Source of the DNA: Schmidtea polychroa
Taxonomy: Eukaryota
DNA: 64,000 nucleotides
Direction: 5' to 3'
Assembly (NCBI GenBank): GCA_044892525.1
Contig: CM097887.1
Span: 17,670,001 to 17,734,000, forward strand
The notes beneath the pieces were generated by a model. The model was not told the origin of the DNA and ran no database searches. It saw only the letters and a list, made by a program, of their open reading frames with translations. Made by a program: the position numbers and the translations under genes. Of the stretch, positions 1-62,128 are shown piece by piece (position 1 is the first letter of the stretch; each line of letters starts with the position of its first letter).

Positions 1-466
1 TTTTATTTTAGATAAATCTATCTATGATAAATAAATGCATGATAAGTTAATGCATTCTTAATCTTGTCTCATCTAGTCTTCATAAGGTTTTATAATAATA
101 ATAATAAGTAACCTTGATAAGGGAAAATTATGAAATAGGGTGCTACACCTTCAATGGTATGCCCATGAACTCGGAGGCGCGTCAAGATATTAGCAGTCAT
201 TGTTACGAAGCTCATCTTTTGCTAACTAGTACCGACTAAAATGCAATACCAATGTCACTTGCGACGGGTATTTAACGATAAAATAAATGATTAAACGTCG
301 TTACGAAAGGAAATGGAATATATTGTGTATTTAATTTATTTAATTAAATAAATTAAATTAAAATTATTTATAATATTATTAACCAATAATATTTTAGAAA
401 AAACAATTTTATTATAATTTTTTTCTTAATCATATAAATTCATTCGAATAATTGAAACTTTTAGCA

Positions 467-2101
467 ATGTTTGAAGAATATGAATGTTTTATTTGTTATT
501 CACTTAAAAAAAAGAACTTATTCATTGGTATTGCAAGATGTAATCATATGTTCTGCAAGCCCTGCCTATTTTCATGGTATTTTGAAAGCAATTCCTGTCC
601 CTTTGACCGCCGAGAAATTAAAGAGGTTTTCTACTTTGAAGATTCCAAAATTATTCCAGTTCTTGACTTCTTATTTAATGAATTGCTAGCCTCGAAAGAT
701 TCAATAATAGACTCTCACCTCACTAATATTCTATCAATTCTTGTAACATTTCAGAACACAATCGGAAAATTTTCTCATATTTTTTATCGAATCGACAATT
801 TTTTTCATGAAAATGATAAAATCTTATTTCAAAGAATAATTAATTTAATTAATTTAGAAAATTTTGATAATTATGATAAATTATTCGATTGGATCAAAGA
901 GGTTTCCAGTGAATTTGTGAAAATCTTCTCGCAAGAAAAAAAGAATTTTACTGTCGATAAGAGATCCATTGAATCCTCGACTAATATTTTAAACAAAATG
1001 ACAAACCAATATCTTGAATTAATTAATTTATCAACCAATAGGAATTCATTAAATTCCAATAAAAGCAAATGCCAAACTGTGCAAATTCTCCAAGCAGAAT
1101 ATATTTTATTATCTTTATGCTATGAAACCTTTGATGAAATTAAATTCAATATGATTTCAATTGGTAATTTCATGAAGGAATTTGATATTTTCCATGAAAT
1201 AAACTCCACATCATTTCAAAAGATTAAATTTAGATATTATTTCGAAACAGCTAAAAAAATCCAAAATTTATACAAATCAATTAATATTAGATTTAAATTC
1301 ATTAAATTGCTGATCCTTTTGATCTCGATCAATCACAACAAAATGGAATTCATAGACCAGTTGGAGAGTTCAACTAATAAATGCATTATATGCTCAGAAG
1401 ATGGGGCAGAACGGGTAGATAAACTGAAAGACTATGACAAATCGATTTGCCAAAATTGCACTAAATTTATCCATTTAGAAACGCACAGCGCGATAAATAA
1501 TGAAACAGCCAATGAAATTCAAATCAGTAAAAATGCATCTAATTATCATATTCTGATTGGTGAAATTGCCACGTTTATTTACCAAATCGTTAATGCAACT
1601 TCAAATTTGCTTCAGGAGATTCCTCAAACTCTGTCGCAGTTTTGCAATCTTTCGAATACCTCTTTTTTGACAGAATATACTAGAAATCTAACGTTTTTGC
1701 ACAATTTTGAAAGTTCAAAACTTTCTCTTTATGTTGTTCAATTATACTTTAAGGACTGCCGTATTGTACCAATGCTGGAGAATTGGTTTGATGAAATGCT
1801 TGATATCTGCGAAGACATTTTACATTTATTCCATTATTTTTTAATCAACTTGAGAGATATAGAATATAAACTGTTCAGTGAAAATTGGGACACTAATGAA
1901 AATTTCCAGAGTGAAATGCGTAGACAAAAAACCGATTTCATGAAAATCTTGAAGCGGCTGTATCATGATACTATTCACTTGATAAATATATCTATAGACC
2001 ATAATATGGGGCAGTCCATTTTTAAAATATTCAATGACCTTGGAGAATTAGTTACAAGGATCATGCGTAATGAAAATGAGATCAATTCAAATGAGTTTTA
2101 A
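467..2101 (+). CDS. Intronless RING-finger protein (putative E3 ligase): N-terminal C3HC3D RING plus degenerate second RING
   Basis: ORF 452-2101, first ATG at 467. Motif CFIC...RCNHMFCKPC...SCPFDR at the N-terminus; second CIIC...ICQNC at ~1382-1470 lacks several ligands. AATAAA follows the stop. Confidence 0.8.
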   Translation: MFEEYECFICYSLKKKNLFIGIARCNHMFCKPCLFSWYFESNSCPFDRREIKEVFYFEDSKIIPVLDFLFNELLASKDSIIDSHLTNILSILVTFQNTIGKFSHIFYRIDNFFHENDKILFQRIINLINLENFDNYDKLFDWIKEVSSEFVKIFSQEKKNFTVDKRSIESSTNILNKMTNQYLELINLSTNRNSLNSNKSKCQTVQILQAEYILLSLCYETFDEIKFNMISIGNFMKEFDIFHEINSTSFQKIKFRYYFETAKKIQNLYKSINIRFKFIKLLILLISINHNKMEFIDQLESSTNKCIICSEDGAERVDKLKDYDKSICQNCTKFIHLETHSAINNETANEIQISKNASNYHILIGEIATFIYQIVNATSNLLQEIPQTLSQFCNLSNTSFLTEYTRNLTFLHNFESSKLSLYVVQLYFKDCRIVPMLENWFDEMLDICEDILHLFHYFLINLRDIEYKLFSENWDTNENFQSEMRRQKTDFMKILKRLYHDTIHLINISIDHNMGQSIFKIFNDLGELVTRIMRNENEINSNEF

Positions 2102-2884: not shown

Positions 2885-3342
2885 CATGAAATTTGATAAC
2901 CAATCAGATTAAAGGAAAATGTAGGAAATAATTTGAATAAATATGACAAATTATAACTGAAATTTACTGAGATTATTTATTAATTTGATATTATTTTACT
3001 GAAATATGTTATGATTTGTTATAATTTAGGGTAATATAATGAATAAATTAATAATTTTGATGGTTTTTACTTTATTATATTATTACTTTGACACAATTTC
3101 TATTGAGAGCAGTGATTTCTAAACTGGGAACTCTCGATTAGCACAGAAGGAGACGTTAAAGTTTTGTTTCTTGAATATTCTAATTTTTTTTCCTTGATTA
3201 AATATATTTTAAAATTATATTTTTAAATTCTATTCTTTTATTTTATTAAAATAATTCTTTATTGTTTATATTATAAACTTTATATAAACTTTATGCTATT
3301 TAAAGAGTTTTGTAACGACACGCAGATTATATTAGTTAATAA

Positions 3343-4300
3343 TATATAAAATTGGAAAAATGTTTCAGACAATGTATGTATGTCCGTTCTAGACTCAGGA
3401 GTGGTTAGAGCTATCGTCTTGAAACTTTTGTTATTTGGTAGATACATCTTTAATGAAGAACCCTATTGTTTGTGAGGTCGATCCGGTGATGGCTTCAGCT
3501 CTTTCAGTGAGCAGAAGTGACGTAAAGTCAGAATTTTTAGAAATTTTTTCATACATTTTCTAACATATCTCAATTTATACTCGTACTATTGTGCTGAAAA
3601 TTTGTTATACGGTAGATTGACCTTAGCCGAAGAACCCATTTGCTTTTTAGTACATTGGTAGATGGCTTCAGTTTTTTAAAGTGACCTGAAGTTTAATTTT
3701 TCTATCATAGTTGTATGTTTTATTATAAATGCTATTGAGTTAATGTAACCATGACATTTAGAGTATTTATTCATGTTTCAGACAATGTATGTATTGCAAA
3801 GTAATGTAAAATGAATACTTTATAAATCAATATAGTTTTTATTATCTTAATTAATATACCGTATATACTTGTGTATAAGCCGAGAAATTTTGGGCAATTT
3901 TTTAAGCTAATTTTTTCTATTCGGCTTATATACATGTCAAAAACAAGATTTTGTGATTATTTAAATAATTCGTCAGATTTTAGCTATTTTTTTTACCTCG
4001 GCTTATATACGGGTACTTGATTTTGGACAAAAAATTGACTATAAAAACTCACTTCGGCTTATATACGGATCGGCTTATACACGAGATGAAATTTTATCAT
4101 CAGTTCCAAATAAATATTAAGACTATAGAAATTAAAAATAATTTAAAAACAAAATACAAATAAAAAATACGGCACCAAAAGAGCTGGAAGTGGAAAAAAA
4201 GTGTGAAGTTATTGTTTCCGTGGCGGTCGTCTTAGGTTTCTATATGTCATGTATAAAAATTTCTTGTGGGGCATTCCAACGCATGCCGGGATTTCGCTAG
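3343..4300 (+). mobile_element. Non-autonomous Helitron-like element
   Basis: 3' GGCAT/ATGCC hairpin followed by CTAG (4297-4300) then T. 5' AATATATAAA...TGTATGTATGTCCG. The segment ATGTTTCAGACAATGTATGTA is duplicated at ~3360 and ~3773. No 5' TC is visible. Confidence 0.5.
3859..4085. mobile_element. Tc1/mariner-superfamily (Tc2/pogo-like) MITE nested in the Helitron-like element
   Basis: TA then CCGTATATACTTGTGTATAAGCCGA; the right end TCGGCTTATACACGAG is a truncated inverted copy. Four internal TCGGCTTATA motifs. Confidence 0.6.
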
Positions 4301-10054: not shown

Positions 10055-12625
10055 TCAATGACAACAGATCAAATTCATGATTTCATTGATTTCTTCTTTA
10101 GTGTTGATCTTTGGCTGTCTGTTTATTATGAGAATTGCTTCTTTGATTCTGACATTTTTCTTTTGGATGTTTCCATTAGCTATGATTTCTATTGAAATAT
10201 TTTTTCTTTCTTCTGTTGGCTGACACTGCCGGAGATGTCTGCCCAACGAGGATATTCCACCAGGATCTAGATGTTCTTTAACTCTTTCGTGCAATGTCCT
10301 GAGGGTACTTCCAATGTAGATTTCATTGCATACATTGCACGTGATGCAATAGACGATGTTTTTTCTAAAGCACATATCTTTCGGTGTCTGGCAGTTTTTC
10401 ATTGTGCAATTGTTTTCTCTATTTATGTTGCCTGCCAGAGCCCTTCTCAATGTCCAAGATTTATGTGCTATCCGAATTGGAAGACCGGTACGTTTAAGTT
10501 CTTTCATGATCTTGAAGTCGAGTATGTCACTGATGAATGGGATATTCAGATAGAAATATTTCTGATTCTTTTGTGTTAATTCCCTAGATCTTCTTGGGGT
10601 AGAATTCATTTTTTCAATGTCCTCACCTTGGTATCCGTTTCGGTGTAGGATTTTATTGAAATTTGATTGCTCTTTAAAGTTTTCGTTTTTCTCCGTGCAT
10701 CGATTGGCTATTCTTCGTTTCTCGTTTCTTATGACATGTACTTCCTGTAAGTATGGAAGCGCTGATCTTTGGTGCATAAATATTTCTTTGCGAGCTGGTT
10801 TTCTGTAGAACCCGTATGTTGGAGTATTTTCTTCTATTTTGATTCTCAAATCCAATAAATTGAGGGATCCATCTTCTTCCGGATATTCGATTTCGAACTT
10901 AATATCTTGATGAGCCGCATTGAATGAATGAAATATTTCCTCCGCTTCTTTTCTGTTTTTGGTCAAGATGAAGATATCATCTACATATCTTGCATAGAAA
11001 CCGATGGGTTGTATGGTCCTCAGTGTCTGTCGTTCGAGGTTATCCATAAAGATGATTGCTAGCAGTCCTGATATGCTAGAACCCATAGGCAGACCTTTAA
11101 CTTGTTTATAGATATTTTGTTCAAAGGTAAAATAGGTGTTCTCGAGGATAACAGTAAGTAGTTTGGTGATATTCTCGGTATTCATTTCCTTTATTAACAA
11201 GTTGCTTTCTCTTAATTTCTTTTCTAAACATTGAATAGCCTCTGTTGGTTCGATAGATGTGTATAGTGATACGACATCAAGACTAAATGGGTATTGGAAT
11301 TCTCTATGACAAGTCATGTTATTATTTAGTCTTGTCATGAGGCAGTCGCTGCTTTGAAGATGGTGTGGTATCGTGTCCAATAAAGGTTTCAAGATCTTTG
11401 CAAGGAGCCAACTTGTTTTAGTTGTTGGTCCATTTTTGTTGGACACTATAGGTCTAATTTTGATACCAGGACCCTCTTTGTGAGTTTTAATTAGGTGGTA
11501 GAAGTTAGGAAGATCAGAATTTTTTGTGACGAAGCTGTTGGTTATTCTGTTGTTGAGCCTCATTTCCAAAGCTATGGCTTTCCATACTTTGTTGATCTTC
11601 ATTTCGATGGTGTTTGGTGACATGCGGCTGACTTTCTTGTATGTTTCGATGTTGCCGAGGTGTTCGTAACCAGCTTCACAGTAACGATTCTTCTCTATAA
11701 TGCAAAATTCTCCCCCCTTGTCACTTGGTAAGTAAACGTACGGTTTCTTTTTAAGGGATTTTAATATTGCCTGTTCGTCTTTTGTTAGGTTTGAGAGATA
11801 TGGTTTTCTTCTTTCCTTCTCAACTAACTCCATGATTTTGTGACAGACCTTTGAGAGTGTTGAATCTAATTCTGCATCAGGATTTGGTTGATAGAGTTTA
11901 TCTGTGTTTATGTATACTGGGAGCTGGTTTTCGCTATTTTCATTTTCATGCGGTATTGTATTGTTCCATTTGATCTGGTACGCAATGCGACAAAGAGCTG
12001 TTTTGAAATTGAGGATGGCTGCTTCATCTATTTCTCTGTTTATACTGAACTTTGGTCCTAGTGAAAGTAATCCTTTTTCACCTTTGGATAGACAATTTGT
12101 GAGGTCGGTTACTAGTTCTTTGTTCACTGTAATGCTTTCGTTTCCGTCCAGTGTTTCATTGTTCTTAACAAGGCCTGCTTTGAGCTCCTTTTTTCTCAAA
12201 AGGTGTTTGATTCTTTTGTCAAATCGCAATGAATAATGTACTTCTGCTGTCATGAAGGATTGTCTTTGTACCTCGTAGATCAATTCTTTTGGGTGGTTAT
12301 TCAAATACGTTTTCAAAATGTTTTCTTGATTCTTTTGTTCCCGATGAGTTTCTCCGTACATACTTCTAATTAAATTTGTTAAAATATAATCTTTGATGTT
12401 TTTATTTCTCTTGATGTTTTGATCTTTGTTGAGAATCTGAGGTAAGTGGATGTTATCAATTGTTGTTGGAAAGATCTTTATTTCCTTACATCGGCGAAGG
12501 AAATTTATTTGGCAGTATAATTTCGCAATTTTCTCGTTGATTCTAGCTAAATTCCGTATTTCCAAGTATTTTGCCCGGCTCAGGCCTTTTGAAAGTATAA
12601 AATGATGATTGCTTGGTAGCAGCAT
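10055..12625 (-). CDS. Penelope-like reverse transcriptase + GIY-YIG endonuclease (856 aa, uninterrupted)
   Basis: SDKGG, FYHLIKTHK, KIRPIVS, SLDVVSLYT, GLPMGS, ARYVDDIF; Cys linker CTMKNC...MC; IVYCITCNVCNEIYIGST...RVKEH; RIKEAILI...PKIN. Confidence 0.95.
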   Translation of the reverse strand: MLLPSNHHFILSKGLSRAKYLEIRNLARINEKIAKLYCQINFLRRCKEIKIFPTTIDNIHLPQILNKDQNIKRNKNIKDYILTNLIRSMYGETHREQKNQENILKTYLNNHPKELIYEVQRQSFMTAEVHYSLRFDKRIKHLLRKKELKAGLVKNNETLDGNESITVNKELVTDLTNCLSKGEKGLLSLGPKFSINREIDEAAILNFKTALCRIAYQIKWNNTIPHENENSENQLPVYINTDKLYQPNPDAELDSTLSKVCHKIMELVEKERRKPYLSNLTKDEQAILKSLKKKPYVYLPSDKGGEFCIIEKNRYCEAGYEHLGNIETYKKVSRMSPNTIEMKINKVWKAIALEMRLNNRITNSFVTKNSDLPNFYHLIKTHKEGPGIKIRPIVSNKNGPTTKTSWLLAKILKPLLDTIPHHLQSSDCLMTRLNNNMTCHREFQYPFSLDVVSLYTSIEPTEAIQCLEKKLRESNLLIKEMNTENITKLLTVILENTYFTFEQNIYKQVKGLPMGSSISGLLAIIFMDNLERQTLRTIQPIGFYARYVDDIFILTKNRKEAEEIFHSFNAAHQDIKFEIEYPEEDGSLNLLDLRIKIEENTPTYGFYRKPARKEIFMHQRSALPYLQEVHVIRNEKRRIANRCTEKNENFKEQSNFNKILHRNGYQGEDIEKMNSTPRRSRELTQKNQKYFYLNIPFISDILDFKIMKELKRTGLPIRIAHKSWTLRRALAGNINRENNCTMKNCQTPKDMCFRKNIVYCITCNVCNEIYIGSTLRTLHERVKEHLDPGGISSLGRHLRQCQPTEERKNISIEIIANGNIQKKNVRIKEAILIINRQPKINTKEEINEIMNLICCH

Positions 12626-18880: not shown

Positions 18881-19879
18881 CTTGAATTATTATTAATATT
18901 ACTATTATTATTATTATCATTAAAATTTAAATCTATATTTAACTTTAAAAATTATTTCATTAAAACTTTCATTTAAATTTGAGTTTAAAAATTAATCCAC
19001 TAAAATTTATATTAAAAATTCACTTAAAAAATATTTCATAAAAATTTCCATTTAAAATTATTTTATCAATATTTTCATTAAAAATTCAGTTAAAAAATAT
19101 TTCATTAAAATTTTCATTAAAAATCGACTCAATAAATTACTCCAAATAAATTTCCATTAAAAAATTAAATTTCTCAAAAAGTTTTGTTGTTAATAAATTC
19201 AAAAATTTTACTTTAATTTACTTATTACATTACTTTAATTTACTTATTTAAAAATTATTACTATAACTTAAAATTTTAGACCATTGATTACTTTAATTAA
19301 AAAATTTGAACCTTAATTTACCTATTTATTCTTGTTTACTTAATTTAACATTTTACACCATAATTACCTTAACAACCAAATATAACTCTTATTTTCATAA
19401 TTAACCAATAATTTCATGTGGTCATTGATTATATCACAAAAATTTGCATTAAAAATCATTTAAAATTTTCAATTCTCAAATACCGACTATTATTCTAACT
19501 TTTTGTTAATAAATTTAAAAATCTTACTATAATTTACTTATTACATTAATTTACTTTTATAATTAAATTTTTACTTGAATTTATATATATTAAAATATAT
19601 TACTTTAACTTTAAAATTTTACACCATTGATTACTTAATTTTAAAAATTAGCAATTAATTTACTTATTTATCCTTAATTTACCTATTTATCTTAATTAAC
19701 TTATCCATAATTTACTTTAATTTTGAAATTTGGACCTTAAATTACTATAATTAAATTTTTTAGACCCTTGATTTGGACCTTAATTAACTTATTTGAGCCT
19801 GTAATTTACTGTAATTCAATTTTTAGACACATAATTTACCTATTTACCATGCTTTTTTAGTGTAGACTGATATTTGTAT

Positions 19880-20924
19880 TGTTGAGGTCCGTAAATTAAA
19901 ATAAAATTTAAATGAAATTTAGGTTAATAATTTAAATAGAAAGTAAATGAAGAAAAAAGACAAATAAAAGCGGGATCATGCACAGAATCAATAGTAAAGG
20001 AAAGTGTGATGGAAGCAGTATTAGAAAATGCCAAAAGCAATTACGAAAGGCAAGAATCCGGAAATCCGAGAAAAATCAATAAATGGTAAAATCATCGAAA
20101 TCGAATTGGGAAAACGGGACAGGTATAGATTAGCTAATGGTCAACAAGATGATGATTAGGGATTTATCAGAAAATGGTTTGGAAGGGTCGAAAAGCATTC
20201 AAATGTATGAAAATAGAAAACGTTAATTAATTAATTAATTGGCTAATGGAAAACCCGACCCAATGGAGAACCCGAGAGATGAAGGAAACCCGAGCTGGGT
20301 AAACAAGAAGAAAAGCAAACAGGAGGAAGATTTGGGCCCATTAGCTTGACACAATGATTAATTGGAAAAGAGCAAGGAGAAGATAGCGCGCGTAGGAAGA
20401 CCGAAAGAGCCATTAATTATCTGGACTCGTTGGACCATTATGGGTGACAGCCGAAGCAGATACGTGGAAGCAAATGTCAAGTGAAAGATTGGCTCGGCAA
20501 TAACCATTTGTCATCCCGATTTCGAGGAGTATATAAGGAAAAGGAAAATCAGAAAAAATCGGCATTTTGCCTCAGCTAAGGTTAGAAGAAACCGAGTTAG
20601 GAATAGGCAAAACGAATTAAGGAAATTGGGAAAAGAAGACATAGAATTAGGAATACGGAAGGGTGAAAAAGAATCAAATCAAAGAGAAACCGAGGAAAAC
20701 GTGGGTCAAGAGAATCTAAAGAGACAAAAGGTGAATATTATCTATTTGCAAAGCATCAGCACCGAGCGGAGAATCGGTCAAACGTAACTTTAATTATTAA
20801 TTGCAAAGTGGTGATAACGAATTGTGAATCTATTATTTCAATATACGTTGGGTCGTTTATTGTTTTGATTTAAAGGACACGAGGAGTCAGAGGGAACCGA
20901 CTTAAAGTAATCTAAAACCCAACA
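19880..20924 (+). mobile_element. Solo LTR (copy A), 1045 bp
   Basis: TGTTG...CAACA ends; 4-bp TSD GTAT; TATATAA at ~20530; highly similar to 38529-39588; no PBS or PPT flanking. Confidence 0.85.
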
Positions 20925-21016
20925 GTATTGCAAATCTCAGGACCAAGGAGACCCCCTCACTATAGTCAAAAAAATCCTTGGCTTTTATAATGAAGAGAAA
21001 TCTTCGCGTTTCCTGC

Positions 21017-21060
21017 ATAGTACTGATGAGAGAATCAAAATCTCGAAACTAGTCCATTAT
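21017..21060 (+). ncRNA. Minimal type I hammerhead ribozyme motif
   Basis: ATAGTA-CTGATGA-GAGA(atcaaaa)TCTC-GAA-ACTAGT-C-CATTAT: canonical core, 4-bp stem II, palindromic ACTAGT stem III, GUC cleavage triplet (C21054). Stem I has 5 bp with the first pair mismatched. Confidence 0.8.
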
Positions 21061-21751
21061 TTAGTTATCACAAAGCTTGTATTGTTTATATTATTCCAAT
21101 GTTNNNNNNNNNNNNNNNNNNNNNNNNNNNNNNNNNNNNNNNNNNNNNNNNNNNNNNNNNNNNNNNNNNNNNNNNNNNNNNNNNNNNNNNNNNNNNNNNN
21201 NNNNNNNNNNNNNNNNNNNNNNNNNNNNNNNNNNNNNNNNNNNNNNNNNNNNNNNNNNNNNNNNNNNNNNNNNNNNNNNNNNNNNNNNTTAATTAATTTA
21301 ATAATGTATTTGCAATTTAATTATTAAATTAATATATTTATTAATTTGAAAGTCAGCGTCTCTACAATTATTATTATTATTATTAAATATTATCTATTTC
21401 TTTTATATTTCTTAATAATTGCAAATAAAGAAATTATAAAACATGTTATGATTTAAAGAAGACAGAAGAACTAGATGTATATGTAATTATTTATTACCGG
21501 GCGCAATGAGTGGTGAGTATCGCACAGATTGTTTCAAAAGATTAGCTTCAGTGTTTATTTATCATAATATTTAATTGTTTTAATATGTAATTGTTTACAA
21601 CTAAAATTACTATTGTATATTGACTTTTACACACTAATGAGTCGCTTTCTCTTTTCCCCTCACTTTCTCTCGATTTCTCTCTTTCTTTCTCTCGCTCTCT
21701 CAAATAATTATTCTCTTGCTTCCAAATTTATAATTCCGTCTGACTTGAACT

Positions 21752-23080
21752 TTAATTGAGTAAATGATTAAACCTTCTAATCCCAGAACAAATCTTTCCA
21801 ATTTGAACGACATTCAAATGAGAGATCCATGTCATTCGACATTGATCCATATAAATTTTAAGGATCAAAAACAATTCATGCTGATGATGTTTCATTAGGA
21901 GAATTGTGTAATTTCTTAGTAAAAGTGCTTCAGTAGAGTTGTCTTGGAGAATTTCTGAGAAACATTTTGACAAATTTCTCTCGAACTCTGCAAGAGTTGC
22001 AATAAAAAATTCTTTTTCGGTATTTTTCACGTTATTTCTAATAGCAATTTTGAGATTTTGTGCGATAGTAATTGAGTCACATTTTAAAGGGGTGTCTAGA
22101 AATGTTCTCAGAAATTCCGATTCTTGATAGAATTCTATTATTGATTTTCTCTGTAAATCGAGATTTTGTTTTAATTTGTAAGAATTTATTGGTTTATGTT
22201 TGCATATGATTTCTGATTCATGAAGATCAATTGGACAAATGATCCGATCGGATTCTGTCACCATGAAACAGTTTCCGCATATTTTGTGTTTACATTTATT
22301 AAATTGTAACATTTCATTCCCACCAAAGCCGCAAGTAAGGCAATGGGAAAATTCAGTTGCGGATGGAACTGGGAATATTTTCTTGTATTCAGTTGTATTA
22401 TGAAAATAGTTTTCCGCGATCCCATACAGAATTATTCGTTTTGTGAAATTGGTCATTTTCATCCGGAGAACTTCTAGTAACACATGTAAAACTAAAGCAT
22501 CGATCAATGAAGATGCTTTCAAGACTTTATTGACCGTAGCACATATTGTCCAAAAGATTTCCTCTGGGATATTCTCCGACAATTTTTGACCTGTTTCTTT
22601 TAGACATTCCAATGAGTTTGCTATAAGTTTTCTGTACACTGGATAATTAGGATTAAGGCTAATTGAATCAAAATGCAAATCAAAATCAAAATGTGTGACA
22701 TTCTTTTTAATATTGTTCAACTTTTCCGTTATCACCTTCAGAAGAATTGATAAACATTCATCAAATTTACTGTTGAATTCGAGTATGGTCTTAAACAATT
22801 CGTTTCCATTTTCTTTTTCGCTTTGAAAATGCCTAATGAGAAAGTAGTAGGGTTTGAGATAAAAAATTGTATTGTTGATCTCTTTGCAAATTGAGTCGTT
22901 CTTACTCCGATCAAAAGGGCAAGTGTACTTGTGATGGAACGTCTGGACTTCTTTCATTGATAACATCATCATGCAACATTCACAAAATTTGTGCTTTGGG
23001 TAACATTTCTCATATCCGAAATTATTTCCCTCCTCGTCATAACAAATTAAACATATTTCTTCAAAATTCATTTCATCCAT
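21752..23080 (-). CDS. Intronless dual-RING protein (442 aa), paralogue of 467-2101
   Basis: RING1 CLIC...KCYPKHKFCECC...TCPFDR; RING2 CLTC...KCKHKICGNC...ICPID (22226-22342). Both end in Asp instead of the eighth Cys. Confidence 0.85.
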   Translation of the reverse strand: MDEMNFEEICLICYDEEGNNFGYEKCYPKHKFCECCMMMLSMKEVQTFHHKYTCPFDRSKNDSICKEINNTIFYLKPYYFLIRHFQSEKENGNELFKTILEFNSKFDECLSILLKVITEKLNNIKKNVTHFDFDLHFDSISLNPNYPVYRKLIANSLECLKETGQKLSENIPEEIFWTICATVNKVLKASSLIDALVLHVLLEVLRMKMTNFTKRIILYGIAENYFHNTTEYKKIFPVPSATEFSHCLTCGFGGNEMLQFNKCKHKICGNCFMVTESDRIICPIDLHESEIICKHKPINSYKLKQNLDLQRKSIIEFYQESEFLRTFLDTPLKCDSITIAQNLKIAIRNNVKNTEKEFFIATLAEFERNLSKCFSEILQDNSTEALLLRNYTILLMKHHQHELFLILKIYMDQCRMTWISHLNVVQIGKICSGIRRFNHLLN

Positions 23081-23539
23081 TTCAGGTTATAAAATGAACA
23101 TTTAAATCAGTTTATTTAAACAAATGGTTGATTTATAATTTTCACTTTTATCGGAAAATTTAATGAGGAAATTAATATTAATATTTTTCTCATTGTTGAT
23201 TAGTATTTATATTTTTGGTTATACAATTATCATAATATAATAATGATTCGCTTTTTCTAAATTTGTTATTTTGCGTCAATTAAAACAATCAAAGTTGCTG
23301 CTTTTTTTAAAATAATAATTTGTTAATAATTCGTATAATTAAAACAAGCAATTTGAAAGAAATAAAAATAAATGAATAAAATAAATAAATATTTTTTGAA
23401 ATAAAGTTTAACAAAATCCAATTTTATTTTTTTTAATTTTTTATTTTATTAATTAGATTATTAACGGGGATTAATTGAATGGCCTCTTTTTCTTTTTTAT
23501 CTTTCACGTTTCTTGGAATATCAGTTCGTGTGCCGAATC

Positions 23540-24416
23540 AATTAAGGAAGTTTTGAAATTTTTCAAAAGCATTAGAAATGACGAAAGTTTCGAAAATAAT
23601 TTGTAGATTTCTAATGAACTTTGTAAAGCATTTGAAACAGAACCGGATTTTTCTACTGAAATTAGTGTATGTCGCCGACATCACCGAAAACAATTTAGCT
23701 ATGAAGGAGATGAAGATATTCAATTTACTTCAAAAGAACATTTCAAAATATTTTTTTCTATGTTTTGGATTTCTATACAAATTTATTGATATGGAACATG
23801 AGGAAATAAAAAAAAGTTGTTTCGATCTCCATAATAAATTTAAAGGTGGTGAATCTTGTGATATCAGTGGCGTAGATTTATATCAAGAGTTAATTTCTCT
23901 AAAAATTATCATAAAAGACAGAAAGCAGCTCGAAGAACTCATAAAGTTTTTATACAAATACAACTTGGAGACTTCTTTTCCAAATGTCGCCACAAGTTTA
24001 AAACTTTTACTGACAGTTCCAGTATCTGTTGCAACTAGAGAGCAAAGTTTTTCAAAATTAAAAATAATCAAAAACCACCTGAGAACTTCAATGACTCAAG
24101 AACGTCTCAGTAATATATCAATTATTGCAATTGAAAGTGAAATTGCTAATTCCTTAAATATTGAAGGGGCGATTGAAGAATTTGCCTCTAAAAAATCGCG
24201 TAGAGTAAATTTTTGATTGTAATATCATAGATTTATAGATGTGCCAAAACATATTAATGTTTTATATTCAATGGTAATATGTACATGTACATTAGATATA
24301 TAAGTATAATAATAAACATTAAGAATGAAAATTTGATTTTTTTCTTTGATTTTGATGTTATCTCAAAGGGCATGCATTCTAGCACGCAGACTGCCATATA
24401 CCCAGGCACGGCCCTG
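23540..24416 (+). mobile_element. hAT transposase 3' fragment (ZMYM1-like) with right end
   Basis: Frameshifted RRHHRKQFSYEGDE, then FPNVATSLKLLLTVPVSVATREQSFSKLKIIKNHLRTSMTQERLS; terminal ...CCAGGCACGGCCCTG at 24416. Confidence 0.85.
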
Positions 24417-33068: not shown

Positions 33069-33546
33069 ATCTACAACCTGAATACCAAGAACTTTCACTT
33101 CAGCTTTACATGTTTTGGAATATCAACGTTTCTCATACTCAAAGGAAACAACTTCCTTTCCTAGATTTCTTGGTTTTACATAAACAAATACTTCGAATAG
33201 TAGCTTAAAATAGTACCTTTTCAGACTTAAAACATTCCATGGTTTTAAATTTTTAAAATTAATAAAATTAAATTAATATTATAAAACAAATTAAAATTAA
33301 ATAATATAATGCAAAGAATCATATAATCATACAATGTTATTTTATTAAAATTTTAATGTTTTAAACCAGAAGGTTAATGTTCGTAGGGATATTGCCCGAG
33401 GAGATATTGTCATGATACGAGAAATATTATTGATGAACAGTTAATCAATAAACGTAATAGATAGATTCGATATAAAATTTAGTAAAACAATTCATCCATC
33501 ATTCGACATCTCAAACGCTAACTCTCATCAAAATCAATAAAAAAAT

Positions 33547-33996
33547 ATGTCAAACATTCGAGAAGCTGTGATCTCTCTGTTGATGAGCTTGATCATCAAC
33601 ACCTATTCAACCAAAGAAATTTTCCTTAGAATACTAATTCGCGATTCTAAAGTTCGTTACGAGAACCGGACTGACACATGCGTCTTCCATTGTCAAAAGG
33701 AATTAATGATCAAAGTTATTACAGACAAAGATTCCAATACTTCCACATTGTACGATACTGGAATCTACATGCCCAAATGCGAGATCATCAACAATTTCAG
33801 TAAAATCGCCAATAGTTTCATGGGAACATTCACTGCTAGAGCAAATAATTCTATGATCGGTTTCAATGTCGTTACCAATAAAAACTTTATGCAAATTAGT
33901 TTCATGCCTCTACATGTGATAACAGTATTCACCTTTAATTCATTTCTGCGTAGACTATTTTTAATAATCTTTCAAACAATATCCTCTTCTAATTGA
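33547..33996 (+). CDS. Hypothetical 149-aa ORF, possibly secreted; may partly be antisense LTR-relic sequence
   Basis: ATG start with a hydrophobic N-terminus; no recognisable domain. The - strand near 33880-33990 resembles LTR-family motifs. Confidence 0.25.
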   Translation: MSNIREAVISLLMSLIINTYSTKEIFLRILIRDSKVRYENRTDTCVFHCQKELMIKVITDKDSNTSTLYDTGIYMPKCEIINNFSKIANSFMGTFTARANNSMIGFNVVTNKNFMQISFMPLHVITVFTFNSFLRRLFLIIFQTISSSN

Positions 33997-34578: not shown

Positions 34579-35567
34579 TGTTGGGTTTTAGGTAAGTTAA
34601 GTCGGTAACCTAACTCCTCGTGTCCTTTTAATCCAAACAATAACTACCCAACGTATATTTGATACACAAAAATATATTTCTCTCAACAATAAATAATCAA
34701 TAGTTCAAGTTTGACCGATTACCCGCTCGGTGTTGATGCTTTGACAAAAGATAAAATTCACCTTTTTATTACTTAGGTTCTCTTGACCAACGTTTCCCTT
34801 TTTCTAATTGATTCCTTTTCGTCTTTTCGTATTCCTATTCTATATTTCATTTTTCCCTAATCTTCTTAATCCGTCTTTATCTTGTCCTAACTAATCTTCT
34901 CGAATCCTAGCTGAGGCAAAAATGCCGATTATTTTGAATTTCGATACTAGACTAATACTAGAATATATATATACACTAGAATAATCACTTTGATTAATCA
35001 GTTTTTAACCTGGTTGCTCTAATTTGACAATGGTTTAACAACCGGCTCCTTGAACGTCATTTGGACCATCTCATGATTAATTGGTTCCCTTTGCTATTCC
35101 TTCATAATGGTCTTAACTTTGTTTGTCTCCATTAATCATGCTGTCATGGTAATGGTCTTCCGAGATTCTCATTTTGTTTACTTTGCTTGTTAATCGCGCT
35201 CTGGTTTTCTATTAGCCAATTAATTAATTAATTACCGATTTCCTGTTTTAACATATTCGATTGCTTCTCGACCCTTTCTAATACTTTTCTCATAAATCCC
35301 TAATCATCATCTTGTTGACCATCAGCTAATCTATACCTGTCCCGTTTTCCCAATTCAATTTCGATAACTTTACAATTATATTTATTTTTCTCGGATTTCC
35401 GGATTCTTGCCTTTCGCAACTGCCTTTGCCATTTTCTAATACTGCTTCCATCATACTTTCTTTTACTATCAATTCTGTGCATGATCACGCTTTTATTTGT
35501 CTTTTTCCATCACCTACTTTTTATTTAAATTTCAACCTAAATTTATTTTAATTTACTGACCTGAAAA
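34579..35567 (-). mobile_element. Solo LTR (copy C), older and more diverged member of the same family
   Basis: Ends match copy A in reverse (TGTTGGGTTTTAG...; GGTCAGTAAATTAAAAT); 4-bp TSD AATT. Confidence 0.8.
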
Positions 35568-37667: not shown

Positions 37668-38528
37668 CTGTAGAATAACACTACCATAATTCTTTACCAA
37701 TATTTGTTTTTCATATATGTTCAAGTAATATTTACTACACCTAATTCCAGATGTTAAAAGTCTCTATACACCAAACACCACTGAGATACATTCTCTATTC
37801 ACTCACCAATTCACTCACCAATTTACCAATTAATCATCTTCATCAATTTATACTGAATTGCTTACAATAATGAATATTTTTTGGAAATTTATTTTAGCCA
37901 TTTTAGAAATGGCTTTCAGGTAAGTCTTTCATTTTGATCCATATAGATATGAGATCATTATTCAAGTTCTTAAATTTTACTTTTAGTCAACATTATAATT
38001 ATACATTTTTAATTAATTTTCAGGGATTTTCGATATTTTATGACAAGTATTTTGGAATATTTTCGAAAAAATGTGAGTCAGATATGTTTTTAATTATAAT
38101 TAAATAAATGAATTACCAAAAATATTAATTTTTCTAAAACATTTTGGGAAAAATCCCCGAATAATAAAAATAAAATAATTTTTGTAATTTTTTTTTCTGA
38201 GCTCAATATGAGGAGCTTCTTTCAGGAAAGCAAATATGGATTGAAAAGACATTGAACAAAATTCATCTGCTCTTGAAATTTCATTAAAAATATATTTTTA
38301 AAAATTTTCAGCGATCTTTTTTTATCCAAAAATTGTCTAAAATAGAATTATTATAGAAATGTATCTCAGCGGTGCATTTCGATGAATCAAAAGTTTGTAT
38401 GTGTTTTAGTATGTATTGTGTTTATGTGCAGTTTTTTAATTTTTCTTCCACTTTTCAGATTTCTATAGTATAAGATGTATCTGATTGCAATCTAAATGAG
38501 AAAATCAACGTGAAATCAGAGTAAGTAT

Positions 38529-39588
38529 TGTTGAGGTCCGAAAATTAAAATAAAATTTAAATGAAATTTAGGTTAATAATTTAAATAAAAAGTAAGTGAA
38601 GAAAAAAGAAATAAAAGCGGGATCATGCACAGAATCAATAGTAAAGGAAAGTGTGATGGAAACAGTATTAGAAAATGCCAAAAGCAATTACGAAAGGCAA
38701 GAAACCGGAAATCCGAGAAAAATCAATAAATGGTAAAATCATCGAAATCTAATGGGGAAAACGGGACAGGTATAGAGTAGCTAATGGTCAACAAGATGAT
38801 GTTTAAGGATTTATCAGAAAATGATTAGGAAGGGTCGAAAAGCATTCAAATGGATGAAAACAGAAAACGTTAATTAATTAATTAATTGGCTAATGGAAAA
38901 CCCGAGCTAATGGGAAACCCGAGCCAATGAAGAACCCGAGAGATGAAGGAAACCCGAGCTGGGTAAACAAGAAGAAAAGCAAACAGAAGGAAGATTTGGG
39001 CCCATTAGCTTGACACAATGATTAATTGGAAAAGAGCAAGGAGAAGATAGTGCGTGTAGAAAGGCCGGAAGGGCCATTAATTATCTGGATTCGTTGGACC
39101 ATTATGGGTGACAGCCGAAGCAGATACGTGGAAGCAAATGTCAAGTGAAAGATTGGCTCGGCAATAACCATTTGTCATCCCGATTTCGAGGAGTATATAA
39201 GGAAAGGGAAAATCAGAAAAAATCGGCATTTTGCCTCAGCTAGGGTTAGAAGAAACTGAGTTAAGACTGGGTAAAACGAATTAAGGAGATTAGGGTAAAG
39301 AAGAAATAGAATAGGAATATGAAAAGGTGAAAAAGAATCAAATCAAACAGAAACAGAGGAAAACGTGGGTCAAGAGAGTCTAGCGGAATAAAAAGTGAAT
39401 ATTATCTATTTGCAAAGCATCAACGCCGAGCGGAGAATCGGTCAAACGTAACTTTGATTATTAATTGTAAAGTGGTGAGAAAAGATTGTAAATTTTATTA
39501 TTTCAATATAAGTTGGGTCGTTATTGCTTTGATTTAAAGGACACGAGGAGTCAGAGGGAACCGACTTAAAGTAATTTAAAACCCAACA
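38529..39588 (+). mobile_element. Solo LTR (copy B), 1060 bp
   Basis: TGTTG...CAACA ends; TSD GTAT; inserted into a GTAAGTAT donor-like site. Confidence 0.85.
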
Positions 39589-40830
39589 GTATGTATGTTT
39601 CTATAATGTAAGATTATTGATTTTTTTGTTATATTATAGGAAACGGTTCTCAGTGGTGTTTGGTGTAATACATGTTGGTGTGTTCATCAGTTGATGACTC
39701 ACCATTTATGAGAATGTGAAGTTATTTACTTCATTTCATTTATTCAATTTTACAAGTAAGTTTTTTTTAATTTAAGTAACTTTTAAGGTTTGAATTTTGA
39801 TTTTATAAAATTATGAGATCACTATTCAAGCTTTTAAATGTTACTTGTAGTCAACATTTTGATTATAAATTATTTTTAATTAATTTTCAGGTTTTTTTAG
39901 GATTTTTATAACTATGAATTTATTTGGAATTATTTCGATAAAATGTAAGTTAAATTATTATTTTTAACTATGAATAAATAAAGAAATCCCCAAAAACATT
40001 TATTTTTTTAAGACATTTAAGAAAGAAGCGGAGTAGTTTTTTAAGCTTTTGTAATGTTCTTTCACCAGCTCATTTATATGGTAAATTTTGTCATTTTATG
40101 TAATTCTATGAAATTATTATTTTTTTATACAAGTTATAAAAATTTAAGATTTTCGAATTTTTTTCCAGAGAAATATCTAAAAATCTAAAGAAAAATAACT
40201 TCAAAAATATTTTATAAATAGATTTTACGATGTCTTGTCGTCCTTTTATCATATCTGAGTTTTTAAGAATGGAAAAAACCTAATGTAATTCAATATTTGA
40301 AAATTTAAATTTAATAATGTCCTTTATCGATTCGGTCTTTCTCAATGGTCAAGGTTCATTTATTATAAATATTGGTTAACATTAGTATTGTCATAGCGGT
40401 TTTTAAAATGCAAAATATTAACTAATATTTTAATGAATTCGCATTGTAAAAACTTTAAGTGATTGTTTTATGGATTTTAATTTTTTAAGCAAAGATACAG
40501 ATGCAAAATATAAGAAATTTAATTTTTTTCATTAAATAAGAGTTTTTATGATTATAAAATTTTATTTTAATCATTCGATATTTAAAAATTAAACTTTTGT
40601 TTTTAAAATTATTTTTTAAATATTTATTCTAATTTTTATATGTTGTAAGATTTTCATACTTGAGTTAATATTTTGAATGTATTTATGTTTGAAATTTTAT
40701 GTCTGTAAAAAATATGTTTAAAAATATAAATTTAATATCATAGGCAAAGATTTAGTGGGAATATTTTTTTTCATAAATTTATTAAATTGTTAATTTTAAA
40801 TATTAAATATAATAATAAAAATAAAATAAA

Positions 40831-60251: not shown

Positions 60252-60887
60252 CTAAATTGTAAACAAAAATTAACAATAATGACATGTTTAGCGAAAATAT
60301 ACGTGAGAATATTTACAATTGTAATGTTTCAAATGTTTCTAAAATAATTTATTTAAAGTATTATGTCATTAAATTTGATGTATGAATCAATAATCAAAAT
60401 TTCAAGGTCATAAATACTTCGAATTAATTAAACAAGTCATTTATGAGTTTATAATTTTTAATATTTTATTTGTATTCATAATTTTTTTTTATTTAAATTA
60501 TCAGAAAATTCGATAAATTAAAATATATTTTTTGCTTTTTCTCTGCAAAGAAAACAATTATCTCAAAGAATAATTACCGCCTATTATTATTTACAATTTA
60601 TCGAATAAAACTTACTCAAAACATGAAATTTTTCACTTGATAAGTAACACAAATTGGAGGTTACTTCTTTACCTTTTTATGGAAATAATGGTTTTTTTTG
60701 CACTTTTCAATTTAATTTATTGTTTCTTTTGTTTAAGTTAGATATCTTGTTGTTTTAATAATTTGGAATTTGCGGTTTTTGTGAATTAAATAAAACTTGT
60801 TATTTATAAATTCTTTGAATAAATATATATTGTTAGTTTCAAGATTTTTCTGCGAAATTTAAAGATGGATCTAAAGACGGATTTAAC

Positions 60888-60898
60888 TGGCGACCACG
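60888..60898 (+). other. Primer-binding site of the Gypsy element (tRNA-Arg-like)
   Basis: TGGCGACCACG immediately upstream of gag; complementary to the ...CGTGGTCG-CCA 3' end of animal tRNA-Arg(TCG) as recalled. Confidence 0.6.
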
Positions 60899-60945
60899 CC
60901 GAAAATCAAAATATCAACGCCATTTCGAAATCGACAAAATCGCTA

Positions 60946-62081
60946 ATGGAATGCCTACCGAAATCATGCCAAGACATGCTCACATTGAACATCAGACGAT
61001 ATGATGGACGAGGTTTAAAAGAAGCCGAAGAATGGATCAGAGATATAGAAGAATGGTTGCTGACAAATGGACAGCGATTGACAAGCACTTTCGATGTGTT
61101 ATTAGTAGCAGAAGCAAAGACATTGTGGGGAAACGTCAGAGAAACAGAAACAACAGATGTAAAAGCCAAAGCGTGGTTCTTAAATACGTTCACAATTACA
61201 AAATCAATAACTGACAAAATCGGAGAATTGGCAGCTATGGAACAGGAAGATGATGAAAGGTTTGCAGCTTTTGAGATACGGCTAAGAAGAGCTTTAGCTG
61301 AAGTTGTAAATTCAGGACGATCAGAAGAAGATATTGTTCAAGACCTCATCGCAAATAAAGCACGCGATGCGAGACTGAGGGAGATACTATTGACGAAACC
61401 AGAAGCAAAAATTGAAGAAACGAGATCATTGGCGAAAATTGAGAATTCAACAGAATACCCTAATTCCCATTCCTACATCACCACAAAGAAGACTATCAGA
61501 AGACCCATTTGTTCGCCATAGATCAAGAAGAGACGAACATCCTATACGCGGACCAATACAATATGAAGGAAATAACCATGGTCGCCGAGAACAATCTCCA
61601 AAAGAGAACAATTCCTGAGAAATGCGAGAATCCCGAATAGCTCAGAAAGAAAGCTGCCAACAATCTCCATGAAAAATATAGCAAGGAGGCTGTACAGCGA
61701 AAGTAGAGGACTACCACAAGCATCGGTCCCAAAATTAACGGTAGGTGATTGTTTTGCTGTGTCGAAAAGGGACACGGAAGGTATGAGTGTCCACTGGGAA
61801 ATAAATGCCTGATATGTGGCAAGGAAGGTCACAGATTCCGAGATTGTTTTTCGTTACGGAAAGAGGTTCGACGCCGATATCAAAGGAAAGCGTGCATAGA
61901 AGAAGAAGATTCAAAATCTGAAAGAAGAGATTACACCGAGAACAGCCAGGATTTCAGAACTGCTCACAGCGACATGGAAGATAGATACAATGTCCCTGAA
62001 AAATATACTATATTGAGAGAAGACGGAAAAAACAACAGCGACTCCATGGGTTTCATTTCGTCGGTGGAGTCAAGACAATAA
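60946..62081 (+). pseudogene. gag: Gag with two CCHC zinc knuckles (frameshifted)
   Basis: RRYDG...AEEWIRDIEEW capsid-like region; CVEKGHGRYEC (first knuckle broken by a 1-nt deletion) and CLICGKEGHRFRDC. Confidence 0.8.
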
Positions 62082-62128
62082 ATTGTGAAATAATAAATGA
62101 ACGACGAAGAGACGAGGCAGAAGAAGAG

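What the first reader, a model, noticed from the sequence alone, without database searches (positions are those of the whole stretch)
20925..21103. Canonical minimal hammerhead ribozyme in a structured island next to an assembly gap: candidate retrozyme or PLE-derived unit
All core nucleotides are present (CUGAUGA, GAAA, GUC), with a palindromic ACUAGU stem III typical of dimer-acting type I hammerheads. Upstream are two more hairpins, CCAAGGA...TCCTTGG and GAAGA-GAAA-TCTTC. No RT ORF is adjacent and the sequence is unrelated to the pLTR motif. A 185-nt N gap starts 43 nt downstream and could hide collapsed tandem copies. Tandem type I hammerhead units in animals yield small circular RNAs, so this may be a non-autonomous ribozyme retroelement family (inference). 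The first stem I pair is an A-C mismatch, so this copy may be impaired.
Basis: partly seen in the sequence, partly recalled or inferred. Interest (0 to 1): 0.75.

Follow-up and report, generated by a model that had tools for sequence, protein, structure and literature searches.

The report
Hammerhead repeat family with U1-like head
This is a cut-short, likely damaged copy of an abundant non-coding repeat that carries a hammerhead ribozyme motif; other copies carry the first 13 letters of the U1 splicing RNA just upstream, which suggests the repeat may borrow a U1-type start site to make RNAs predicted to cut themselves.

Summary
The hammerhead motif is real (21017-21060; 0 of 300 shuffles match), but the 179-nt 'island' is two repeats, not one unit, and folds no better than chance. 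20925-20991 belongs to a ~80-nt tandem repeat split by a solo LTR (19880-20924); the hammerhead repeat starts at 20992. Contigs of four public runs show it is a very abundant family. Its majority form has a perfect 6-bp helix I and 4-bp helix II, so the A-C mismatch is this copy's own. The family runs on into the gap. Upstream of 20992, where this copy is cut, family contigs (43, 58, 72 and 10 per run) carry ATACTTACCTGGC, the U1 snRNA 5' end, behind a shared 15-nt flank. Best reading: a 5'-truncated, decayed copy of a non-LTR-retrozyme-like family, probably transcribed from a U1-type start site. Tandem arrangement, unit length, expression, circles and cleavage are not shown. Retrozymes are known and newt satellite 2 has an snRNA-type promoter; my searches found no U1 head on a hammerhead repeat, in papers or in this scan's earlier notes. 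New variant of a known kind.

The parts
19880..20924 (.). Solo LTR (TGTTG...CAACA, 1045 bp) inserted into the ~80-nt repeat; flanked by GTAT at 19876-19879 and 20925-20928; neighbour, not part of the ribozyme unit
   Evidence: Copies at 38525-39592 (+, 92%) and about 34579-35554 (-, 76-88%); ends and duplication read. 'Gypsy-like' is my inference from the ends and the 4-bp duplication.
19848..19879 (+). Left remnant of the ~80-nt tandem repeat unit, upstream of the LTR
   Evidence: Matches the letters that contigs carry between the end and the start of the unit (table 5c, X1 joint 20986 to 20925 with 18 letters; X2 loose end behind 20977).
20925..20991 (+).
   Evidence: Five go-back joints inside 20925-20996, periods of about 60-83 nt where the letters between are given; highest summed depth of the stretch in X1 and X2.
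20992..21103 (+). 5'-truncated copy of the hammerhead repeat family (visible part; the family continues into the gap)
   Evidence: Shared loose ends before 20992 (43/58/72/10 contigs) and behind 21103 (20 in X1, 8 in X9 among the rows shown) (table 7). The junction with the 80-nt repeat is bridged by X1 record 8 (20948-21022, 0 differences).
20992..21008 (+). GAAA-tetraloop hairpin: 5 bp in this copy, 8 bp in family members that keep the upstream letters
   Evidence: Sequence, fold; the three extra pairs are paired by hand from the loose end.
21017..21060 (+). Canonical-plan type I hammerhead motif, predicted cleavage after C21054; this copy has an A-C mismatch at pair 1.1-2.1 and a loop 2 that is 2 nt longer than in relatives
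   Evidence: variants C21055T and a 2-nt deletion at 21033/21034 tables 3-4; exact copy in X2 record 16 (21015-21103, 0 differences, depth 16.5).
21104..21288 (.). Assembly gap (185 N) that holds at least the next part of the family unit; tandem copies neither shown nor excluded
   Evidence: no listed contig spans it.

Best explanation
The stretch 20992-21103 is a 5'-truncated, likely decayed copy of an abundant non-coding repeat family that carries a canonical-plan type I hammerhead motif and, in other copies, a U1-snRNA-like 5' end, and the family likely works as a non-LTR retrozyme transcribed from a U1-type start site. Shown: motif, family abundance, better-paired majority form, U1-like motif with a shared upstream flank, truncation. 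Inferred: (1) units lie head to tail, each with its own upstream snRNA-type Pol II promoter, so that the U1 letters mark the start site; (2) read-through RNA is cut by the hammerheads, best as dimers through the palindromic helix III; (3) unit-length RNA is closed into circles by a host ligase; (4) a Penelope-like RT/GIY-YIG protein, such as the full-length frame at 10055-12625, copies it to new sites, leaving 5'-truncated copies like this one, which has lost its head and is probably inert.
For: Descriptor 0 of 300 shuffles. Summed contig depth over 21017-21047 is about 3000-4100 times that of the single-copy-like right flank in X1-X3, and 0.27-0.58 of the LTR's (the tool says this is no copy number). 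Majority 3' half (loose end behind 21032; 40/52/67/7 contigs, agreement 0.80-0.92) gives helix II GAGC/GCUC with loop CAAAA, the same ACUAGU palindrome and GUC, then UACUAU, which pairs 6 of 6 with AUAGUA at 21017-22, then GGG that can close loop 1 against UCC at 21011-13 (paired by hand). Contigs aligned through 21055 read T at summed depth 45.7 of 45.7 (X1), 31.1 of 99.6 (X2), 1150 of 1150 (X3), 12 of 12 (X9). This matches the canonical plan of 6-bp helix I, 4-bp helix II and short palindromic helix III (PMC4209133), which in coral marks the tandem retrozymes while minimal forms mark PLEs (PMC7229834). U1 5' consensus AUACUUACCUG (PMC3033335, PMC4856993) and the human start in a cloning primer (PMC3936765) match the family's loose end 11 of 11 and 13 of 13; chance about 1e-4 and 4e-6 per 400 sites. 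Precedents for promoter plus hammerhead in each unit: newt satellite 2 (snRNA promoter) and schistosome repeat (Pol III promoter). A PLE with RT and GIY-YIG lies in the same window.
Against: No go-back joint was seen for 20992-21103, while five were seen for the neighbouring 80-nt repeat; contigs are mostly shorter than the unit must be (at least about 170 nt), so this is weak, but tandem order is unproven. One 301-nt contig (X9 record 32) has 64 nt before and 129 nt after its match with no second match listed. The family picture is pieced together from majority loose ends of up to 30 letters from one call; no whole unit was seen and linkage of the pieces on one molecule is assumed. Only 15 nt upstream of the U1 motif are visible, so no promoter element was seen. 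The 13th U1 letter is also explained by hairpin pairing. The helix II change between subfamilies (A-U against C-G) looks compensatory, but X2 contigs at depth about 380-400 seem to carry C opposite U. Rfam gives no hammerhead hit. 8 of 9 predicted Xenopus retrozyme dimers did not cleave in vitro (10.64898/2026.07.22.740005). The window copy's active monomer fold is unfavourable (+4.5 against -6.6 kcal/mol).
Confidence: 0.55

Rival explanations
1. The family is the pseudo-LTR of another Penelope-like element family; this copy is a solo or 5'-truncated 3' end, and the U1-like letters are a captured piece or an antisense splice donor within the pLTR.
For: PLE hammerheads mostly occur as single motifs from truncated copies; some fly, rotifer, shrimp and mosquito PLEs have a small palindromic helix III (PMC4209133). 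Xenopus retrozymes derive from pLTRs. PLEs are present here. No tandem joint seen.
Against: Most metazoan PLE motifs have a long helix II, short helix I and an extra unpaired base, as the window's own PLE does (four U3-A8 copies); this family has the canonical plan. No RT frame next to this copy; low-copy sequence resumes by about 21390 (X3).
Confidence: 0.2
2. A dispersed short retroposon, or a U1-gene-targeting element, that took a U1 5' piece by template switching or by inserting just behind a U1 start site; the hammerhead only frees the element's RNA from the co-transcript, without tandem arrays or circles.
For: U1/U2 pieces are added to SINEU by template switch (PMC4494074); elements that target snRNA genes exist (Keno; Dada, listing); ribozymes free mobile elements from co-transcripts (PMC6765202).
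Against: The 15 nt upstream of the U1 motif are shared in all four runs (agreement 0.72-0.77 over the loose end), which a terminal SINE head at many insertion sites would not give; a palindromic helix III favours a neighbouring second copy.
Confidence: 0.13
3. A retrozyme-like or satellite family in which the U1 match is incidental (chance, or a perfect 5' splice site on the opposite strand) and says nothing about transcription.
For: The motif was noticed after the fact; on the minus strand it reads as the consensus donor; U1 stem-loop I does not follow.
Confidence: 0.1
4. The hammerhead motif is a chance match or an assembly artefact beside a gap.
For: No Rfam hit; no excess folding energy; gap edge.
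Against: 0 of 300 shuffles; exact contigs bridge the junction and the motif (records 8, 16); relatives pair better than this copy.
Confidence: 0.02

Closest known systems
Metazoan non-LTR retrozymes (Cervera and de la Pena 2020, PMC7229834; Li, Clavereau and Pollet, 10.64898/2026.07.22.740005)
   Same: Canonical type I hammerhead with short palindromic helix III; AT-rich, non-coding as far as visible, high copy; co-exists with PLEs; isolated monomer copies are common.
   Different: Tandem order and circular RNA not shown here; U1-like 5' motif plus GAAA hairpin upstream of the ribozyme is not mentioned in the parts I read (no 'snRNA' or 'splice' in the main text of PMC7229834 outside references; figures and supplements not seen).
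Newt satellite 2 (Coats, Zhang and Epstein 1994; seen only as cited in PMC2220036 and PMC6765202)
   Same: Hammerhead repeat said to be transcribed by Pol II from an internal snRNA-type promoter.
   Different: There the promoter is shown; here only the U1 5' RNA sequence is seen and the promoter is inferred. Whether satellite 2 also carries U1 5' letters I could not check (paper not held).
Schistosoma Sm-alpha SINE-like hammerhead repeat (via PMC6765202, PMC6155905)
   Same: Promoter part followed by a type I hammerhead in a repeated unit that needs a tandem partner to propagate.
   Different: Pol III promoter there; U1-like (Pol II) signature here.
SINEU of crocodilians (Kojima 2015, PMC4494074)
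   Same: U1-derived 5' sequence in a short non-coding repeat.
   Different: SINEU heads are terminal, and no ribozyme is described in the parts I read; here only 13 nt match, the upstream flank is shared, and a hammerhead follows.
PLE pseudo-LTR min-HHRs (Cervera and de la Pena 2014, PMC4209133)
   Same: Type I topology, palindromic centre, dimer-type action, many single truncated copies.
   Different: Helix sizes and loop plan differ; no link to an RT frame; no similarity to the pLTR of the window's own PLE.

Membership tests
Canonical metazoan type I hammerhead ribozyme | Core CUGANGA, GAAA, NUH in type I order | tested here: met
   same core in the family majority.
Canonical metazoan type I hammerhead ribozyme | 4-bp helix II with G10.1-C11.1; short palindromic helix III | tested here: met
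   GAGA/UCUC and ACUAGU; GAGC/GCUC in the majority.
Canonical metazoan type I hammerhead ribozyme | 6-bp helix I, window copy | tested here: not met
   A21022-C21055 mismatch, then 5 pairs.
Canonical metazoan type I hammerhead ribozyme | 6-bp helix I with closed loop 1, family majority | tested here: met
   UACUAU pairs 6 of 6 with 21017-22; closing GGG against UCC; paired by hand from loose ends, 5' strand assumed unchanged because no variant is listed at 21010-21022.
Canonical metazoan type I hammerhead ribozyme | Score against Rfam hammerhead models | tested here: not met
   Window copy: no hammerhead family at gathering or among 5 matches at E up to 10. The majority form was not scored.
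Canonical metazoan type I hammerhead ribozyme | Self-cleavage; loop 1-loop 2 contacts | not testable with these tools
   Needs in vitro assay.
Non-LTR retrozyme | Many genomic copies of a short unit with a type I hammerhead | tested here: met
   depth and loose ends in 4 of 4 runs laid; ratios. Exact copy number not obtainable.
Non-LTR retrozyme | Head-to-tail tandem units of about 150-450 bp | tested here: inconclusive
   No go-back joint for 20992-21103; contigs short; gap not spanned; no tandem call near it in the window.
Non-LTR retrozyme | No protein coding | tested here: inconclusive
   The 64-codon open frame over 20911-21102 has no start codon and no Pfam hit; the unseen part of the unit was not tested.
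Non-LTR retrozyme | Expressed as unit-length linear and circular RNA | not testable with these tools
   Only contigs were served; no run on record as RNA holds the stretch.
Non-LTR retrozyme | Autonomous PLEs in the same genome | tested here: met
   856-aa RT plus GIY-YIG frame at 10055-12625.
PLE pseudo-LTR | min-HHR plan (long helix II, short helix I, extra unpaired base, no helix III loop) | tested here: not met
PLE pseudo-LTR | Flanks an RT/GIY-YIG frame | tested here: inconclusive
   Not in this copy; other copies' flanks beyond 30 nt were not visible.
U1 snRNA gene | 5' arm AUACUUACCUG | tested here: met
   Family loose end before 20992; absent from the window copy.
U1 snRNA gene | U1 body (stem-loops, Sm site) behind the arm | tested here: not met
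   A GAAA hairpin and a hammerhead follow; no U1 match in Rfam for 20700-21104.
U1 snRNA gene | Proximal sequence element about 60 bp upstream | not testable with these tools
   Only 15 nt upstream visible; position from PMC4494074.
SINEU | U1/U2-derived head at the element's 5' terminus, flanks differing between copies | tested here: not met
   Upstream 15 nt shared across 4 runs.

The most novel reading that the evidence does not exclude
A selfish ribozyme repeat that has taken over a U1 snRNA promoter and start site: each unit is transcribed like an snRNA gene, self-cleaves about 76 nt after the U1-like A, and yields abundant small RNAs or circles that expose the intact 5'-splice-site recognition arm of U1 without the U1 body, able to pair with host donor sites or to use snRNA capping, export and processing.
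Probability: 0.2. Interest if true: 0.85.

Novelty: new variant of a known kind. Interest (0 to 1): 0.52.

Why it matters
How animal retrozymes are transcribed so strongly is little studied; the two cases I found cited are an snRNA-type promoter in newts and a Pol III promoter in schistosomes. A family that keeps the literal U1 5' end would show where such a promoter came from and would give a sharp test (capped 5' ends at one base). If the RNA is abundant, a free U1 recognition arm raises the question of an effect on host splicing. The window copy itself is an ordinary decayed monomer.

Tried and rejected
No whole genome is held, so copy number and spacing could not be counted. No RNA holder listed. 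X9 (RNA only by guess) covers the family, but also the LTR and the 80-nt repeat, and its hammerhead/LTR depth ratio (0.14) is below that of X1-X3 (0.27-0.58): no statement on expression either way. Family patterns found 0 stretches in metagenome, viral and prokaryote collections. A U1-arm-plus-core pattern gave 8 metagenome stretches; by eye none has hammerhead stems, and Rfam gave 0 hits on these 8 plus 12 of the 18 viral loci with the 15-mer (6 loci not scanned): chance matches. A blastn hit of the unit at 3230-3274 (E 0.005) is AT-rich sequence without the motif; motifs of the family's flanks occur in the window at chance level. The adjacent LTR is not part of the unit: it has its own duplication and its other copies have other flanks, so a plant-type LTR retrozyme was rejected. 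Weak C/D snoRNA matches (E 3.8-5) rejected. Protein searches did not name the organism. Paper searches for a U1 link to hammerhead repeats listed none that describes one. The scan's earlier notes held no look-alike.

Full report
1. Observation. A descriptor scan found this one site in 64 kb; 0 of 300 block-wise dinucleotide shuffles gave core, helix II, 6-nt palindrome and helix I together, 3 of 300 without helix I, and 2 of 300 with any helix III of 3 pairs. Against it: Rfam has no hammerhead hit, and neither the 179-nt stretch (z -0.06), the 61-nt motif (z 0.03) nor 20992-21103 (z 0.14) folds better than shuffles, so 'structured island' is not supported. The gap is 185 N at 21104-21288.

2. 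Surroundings. The finding begins at the right-hand GTAT duplication of a 1045-bp solo LTR, 19880-20924, with further copies near 38.5-39.6 kb and 34.6-35.6 kb. The nearest RT frame is a Penelope-like element 8 kb away (856 aa, RVT_1 E 2e-14, GIY-YIG E 3e-5). Its pseudo-LTR carries a different ribozyme motif in four copies (U3-A8 core, 6-bp helix II after an unpaired base, 4-bp helix I), the PLE type described in PMC4209133. The finding's stretch has no match to those copies.

3. Related sequence. Of 15 runs listed, 8 hold part of the stretch, none half of its words, none on record as RNA. I laid 4 of them (X1, X2, X3, X9; at most four samples, three studies; all contigs) on 20800-21700 at 80% likeness. 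The best holder may be the window's own source. Results: (a) Summed depth is 2e4 to 2.6e5 over 20924-21109 in X1 against 14-19 on the right flank; ratios for the ribozyme bin are about 3000-4100 in X1-X3. The tool warns that this is no copy number and overlapping short contigs inflate it; I read it as hundreds to a few thousand copies (inference). (b) 20925-20991 is part of a separate ~80-nt tandem repeat: five go-back joints, and the letters between unit end and start match the 32 nt left of the LTR. The first hairpin belongs there. (c) The hammerhead family starts, in this copy, at 20992; an exact 75-nt contig bridges that junction and an exact 131-nt contig at depth 16.5 covers 21015-21103, so the copy with its mismatch is real and about single-copy. 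(d) The majority 3' half (40, 52, 67, 7 contigs) has helix II GAGC/GCUC, loop CAAAA, the same palindrome and GUC, then a strand that pairs 6 of 6 with 21017-21022, then GGG that can close loop 1. A smaller window-like subfamily keeps GAGA/UCUC with a 5-nt loop and U at 21055. The mismatch is thus private to this copy. One caveat: X2 contigs at depth about 380-400 appear to have C opposite U at the top of helix II. (e) The family continues behind 21103 with a shared 30-nt loose end (20 contigs in X1, 8 in X9 among the rows shown; 384 rows were not shown). (f) Before 20992, 43, 58, 72 and 10 contigs share a loose end whose last 15 letters are ATACTTACCTGGCGC and whose first 15 are also shared (agreement 0.72-0.77).

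4. The U1-like motif. AUACUUACCUG is the U1 5' consensus that pairs with donor sites (PMC3033335, PMC4856993; passages); the human gene begins ATACTTACCTGGCAG in a cloning primer (PMC3936765; passage). The family matches 13 of 13, then leaves U1: its last three letters extend the GAAA hairpin from 5 to 8 pairs, and the core follows 34 nt after the 12th letter. Chance is about 4e-6 (13-mer) or 1e-4 (11-mer) per 400 sites, before allowing for the fact that I noticed it after the event. The window has no exact copy. No U1 body follows, so this is not a U1 gene. The shared upstream flank argues against a terminal SINE head. From the U1-like A to the predicted cut is about 76 nt.

5. Mechanism. Best reading (0.55): a non-LTR-retrozyme-like family whose units are read from a captured U1-type promoter, cut by the hammerheads (dimer-type, given the palindrome), closed into circles, and moved by a PLE protein; the window copy is a 5'-truncated, decayed monomer or first unit, broken off at the hairpin. 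The cut-and-circle cycle is established for coral, mussel and axolotl repeats and PLE mobilisation is proposed there (PMC7229834, parts 2-4 of 6 read; 10.64898/2026.07.22.740005, parts 1-3 of 5 read); here every RNA step is inferred. The weak point is tandem order: no go-back joint was seen for this family although the method saw them next door; the visible unit is already about 170 nt and most listed contigs are shorter. Rivals: pLTR of an unseen PLE family (0.2), dispersed or U1-gene-targeting retroposon (0.13), incidental U1 match (0.1), chance or artefact (0.02).

6. Comparison and novelty. It works like, and is built like, a metazoan retrozyme; membership is open because tandem order and circles are untested, and the window copy fails the helix I test. 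Hammerhead repeats of this kind are reported from many invertebrate phyla. An snRNA-type promoter is reported for newt satellite 2 (seen only as cited in PMC2220036 and PMC6765202, passages; the primary paper is not held). U1-derived heads are known from SINEU (PMC4494074, part 1 of 5 and passages), and snRNA-gene-targeting transposons from PMC3706591 (listing only). Five searches and term look-ups in PMC7229834, PMC5680766, PMC6765202, PMC6155905 and PMC8557442 (passages) showed no hammerhead repeat with a U1 5' end; PMC4209133 was read in parts 1-2 of 4 and PMC4647461 as passages. The library lacks most subscription papers, and I saw no figures or supplements, where consensus sequences with such a motif could stand. 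The scan's own notes held no look-alike.

7. Verdict. Observation partly confirmed; interpretation partly supported; new variant of a known kind; interest 0.52. The copy is ordinary; the family's U1-like head is the part worth following, and it rests on one read-laying run.

Noticed in passing
window 12720-12686 (-), 9645 (-), 13596 (-), 13351 (+): The pLTR of the Penelope-like element (frame 10055-12625) carries a U3-A8 minimal hammerhead variant in four copies with identical core and helix II, with an inverted 613-nt flank of 100% complementarity; looks recently inserted.
   Followed up: partly
window 19876-20928 and 38525-39592: Two solo LTR copies are both flanked by GTAT on both sides, suggesting a target-site preference (or that these letters belong to the element's ends).
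   Followed up: partly
window 20530-20592, 39194-39256, 2518-2580: A TATATA box followed by a conserved ATCGGCATTTTG block in the LTR copies and in a more distant fragment at 2.5 kb; if it is the LTR promoter on the + strand, it could read through into the hammerhead copy.
   Followed up: no
window 19848-19879 and 20925-20991: A very abundant, diverged ~80-nt tandem repeat with an internal 7-bp inverted pair; more abundant than the LTR in two runs; identity unknown.
   Followed up: partly
window 21022/21025 to 21066 (table 5): All four runs hold a low-depth family copy in which the hammerhead core is deleted (40-43 nt skipped).
   Followed up: no
window 452-2101 (+) and 21752-23086 (-): Two long intron-free frames with N-terminal RING-like cysteine motifs; the second has two such motifs but no Pfam hit.
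   Followed up: no
window 33541-33996, 23557-24216, 60823-63496: An HSP90-like fragment (41-53% identity to database proteins), a hAT dimerisation-domain remnant, and Gypsy-like gag/pol frames.
   Followed up: no
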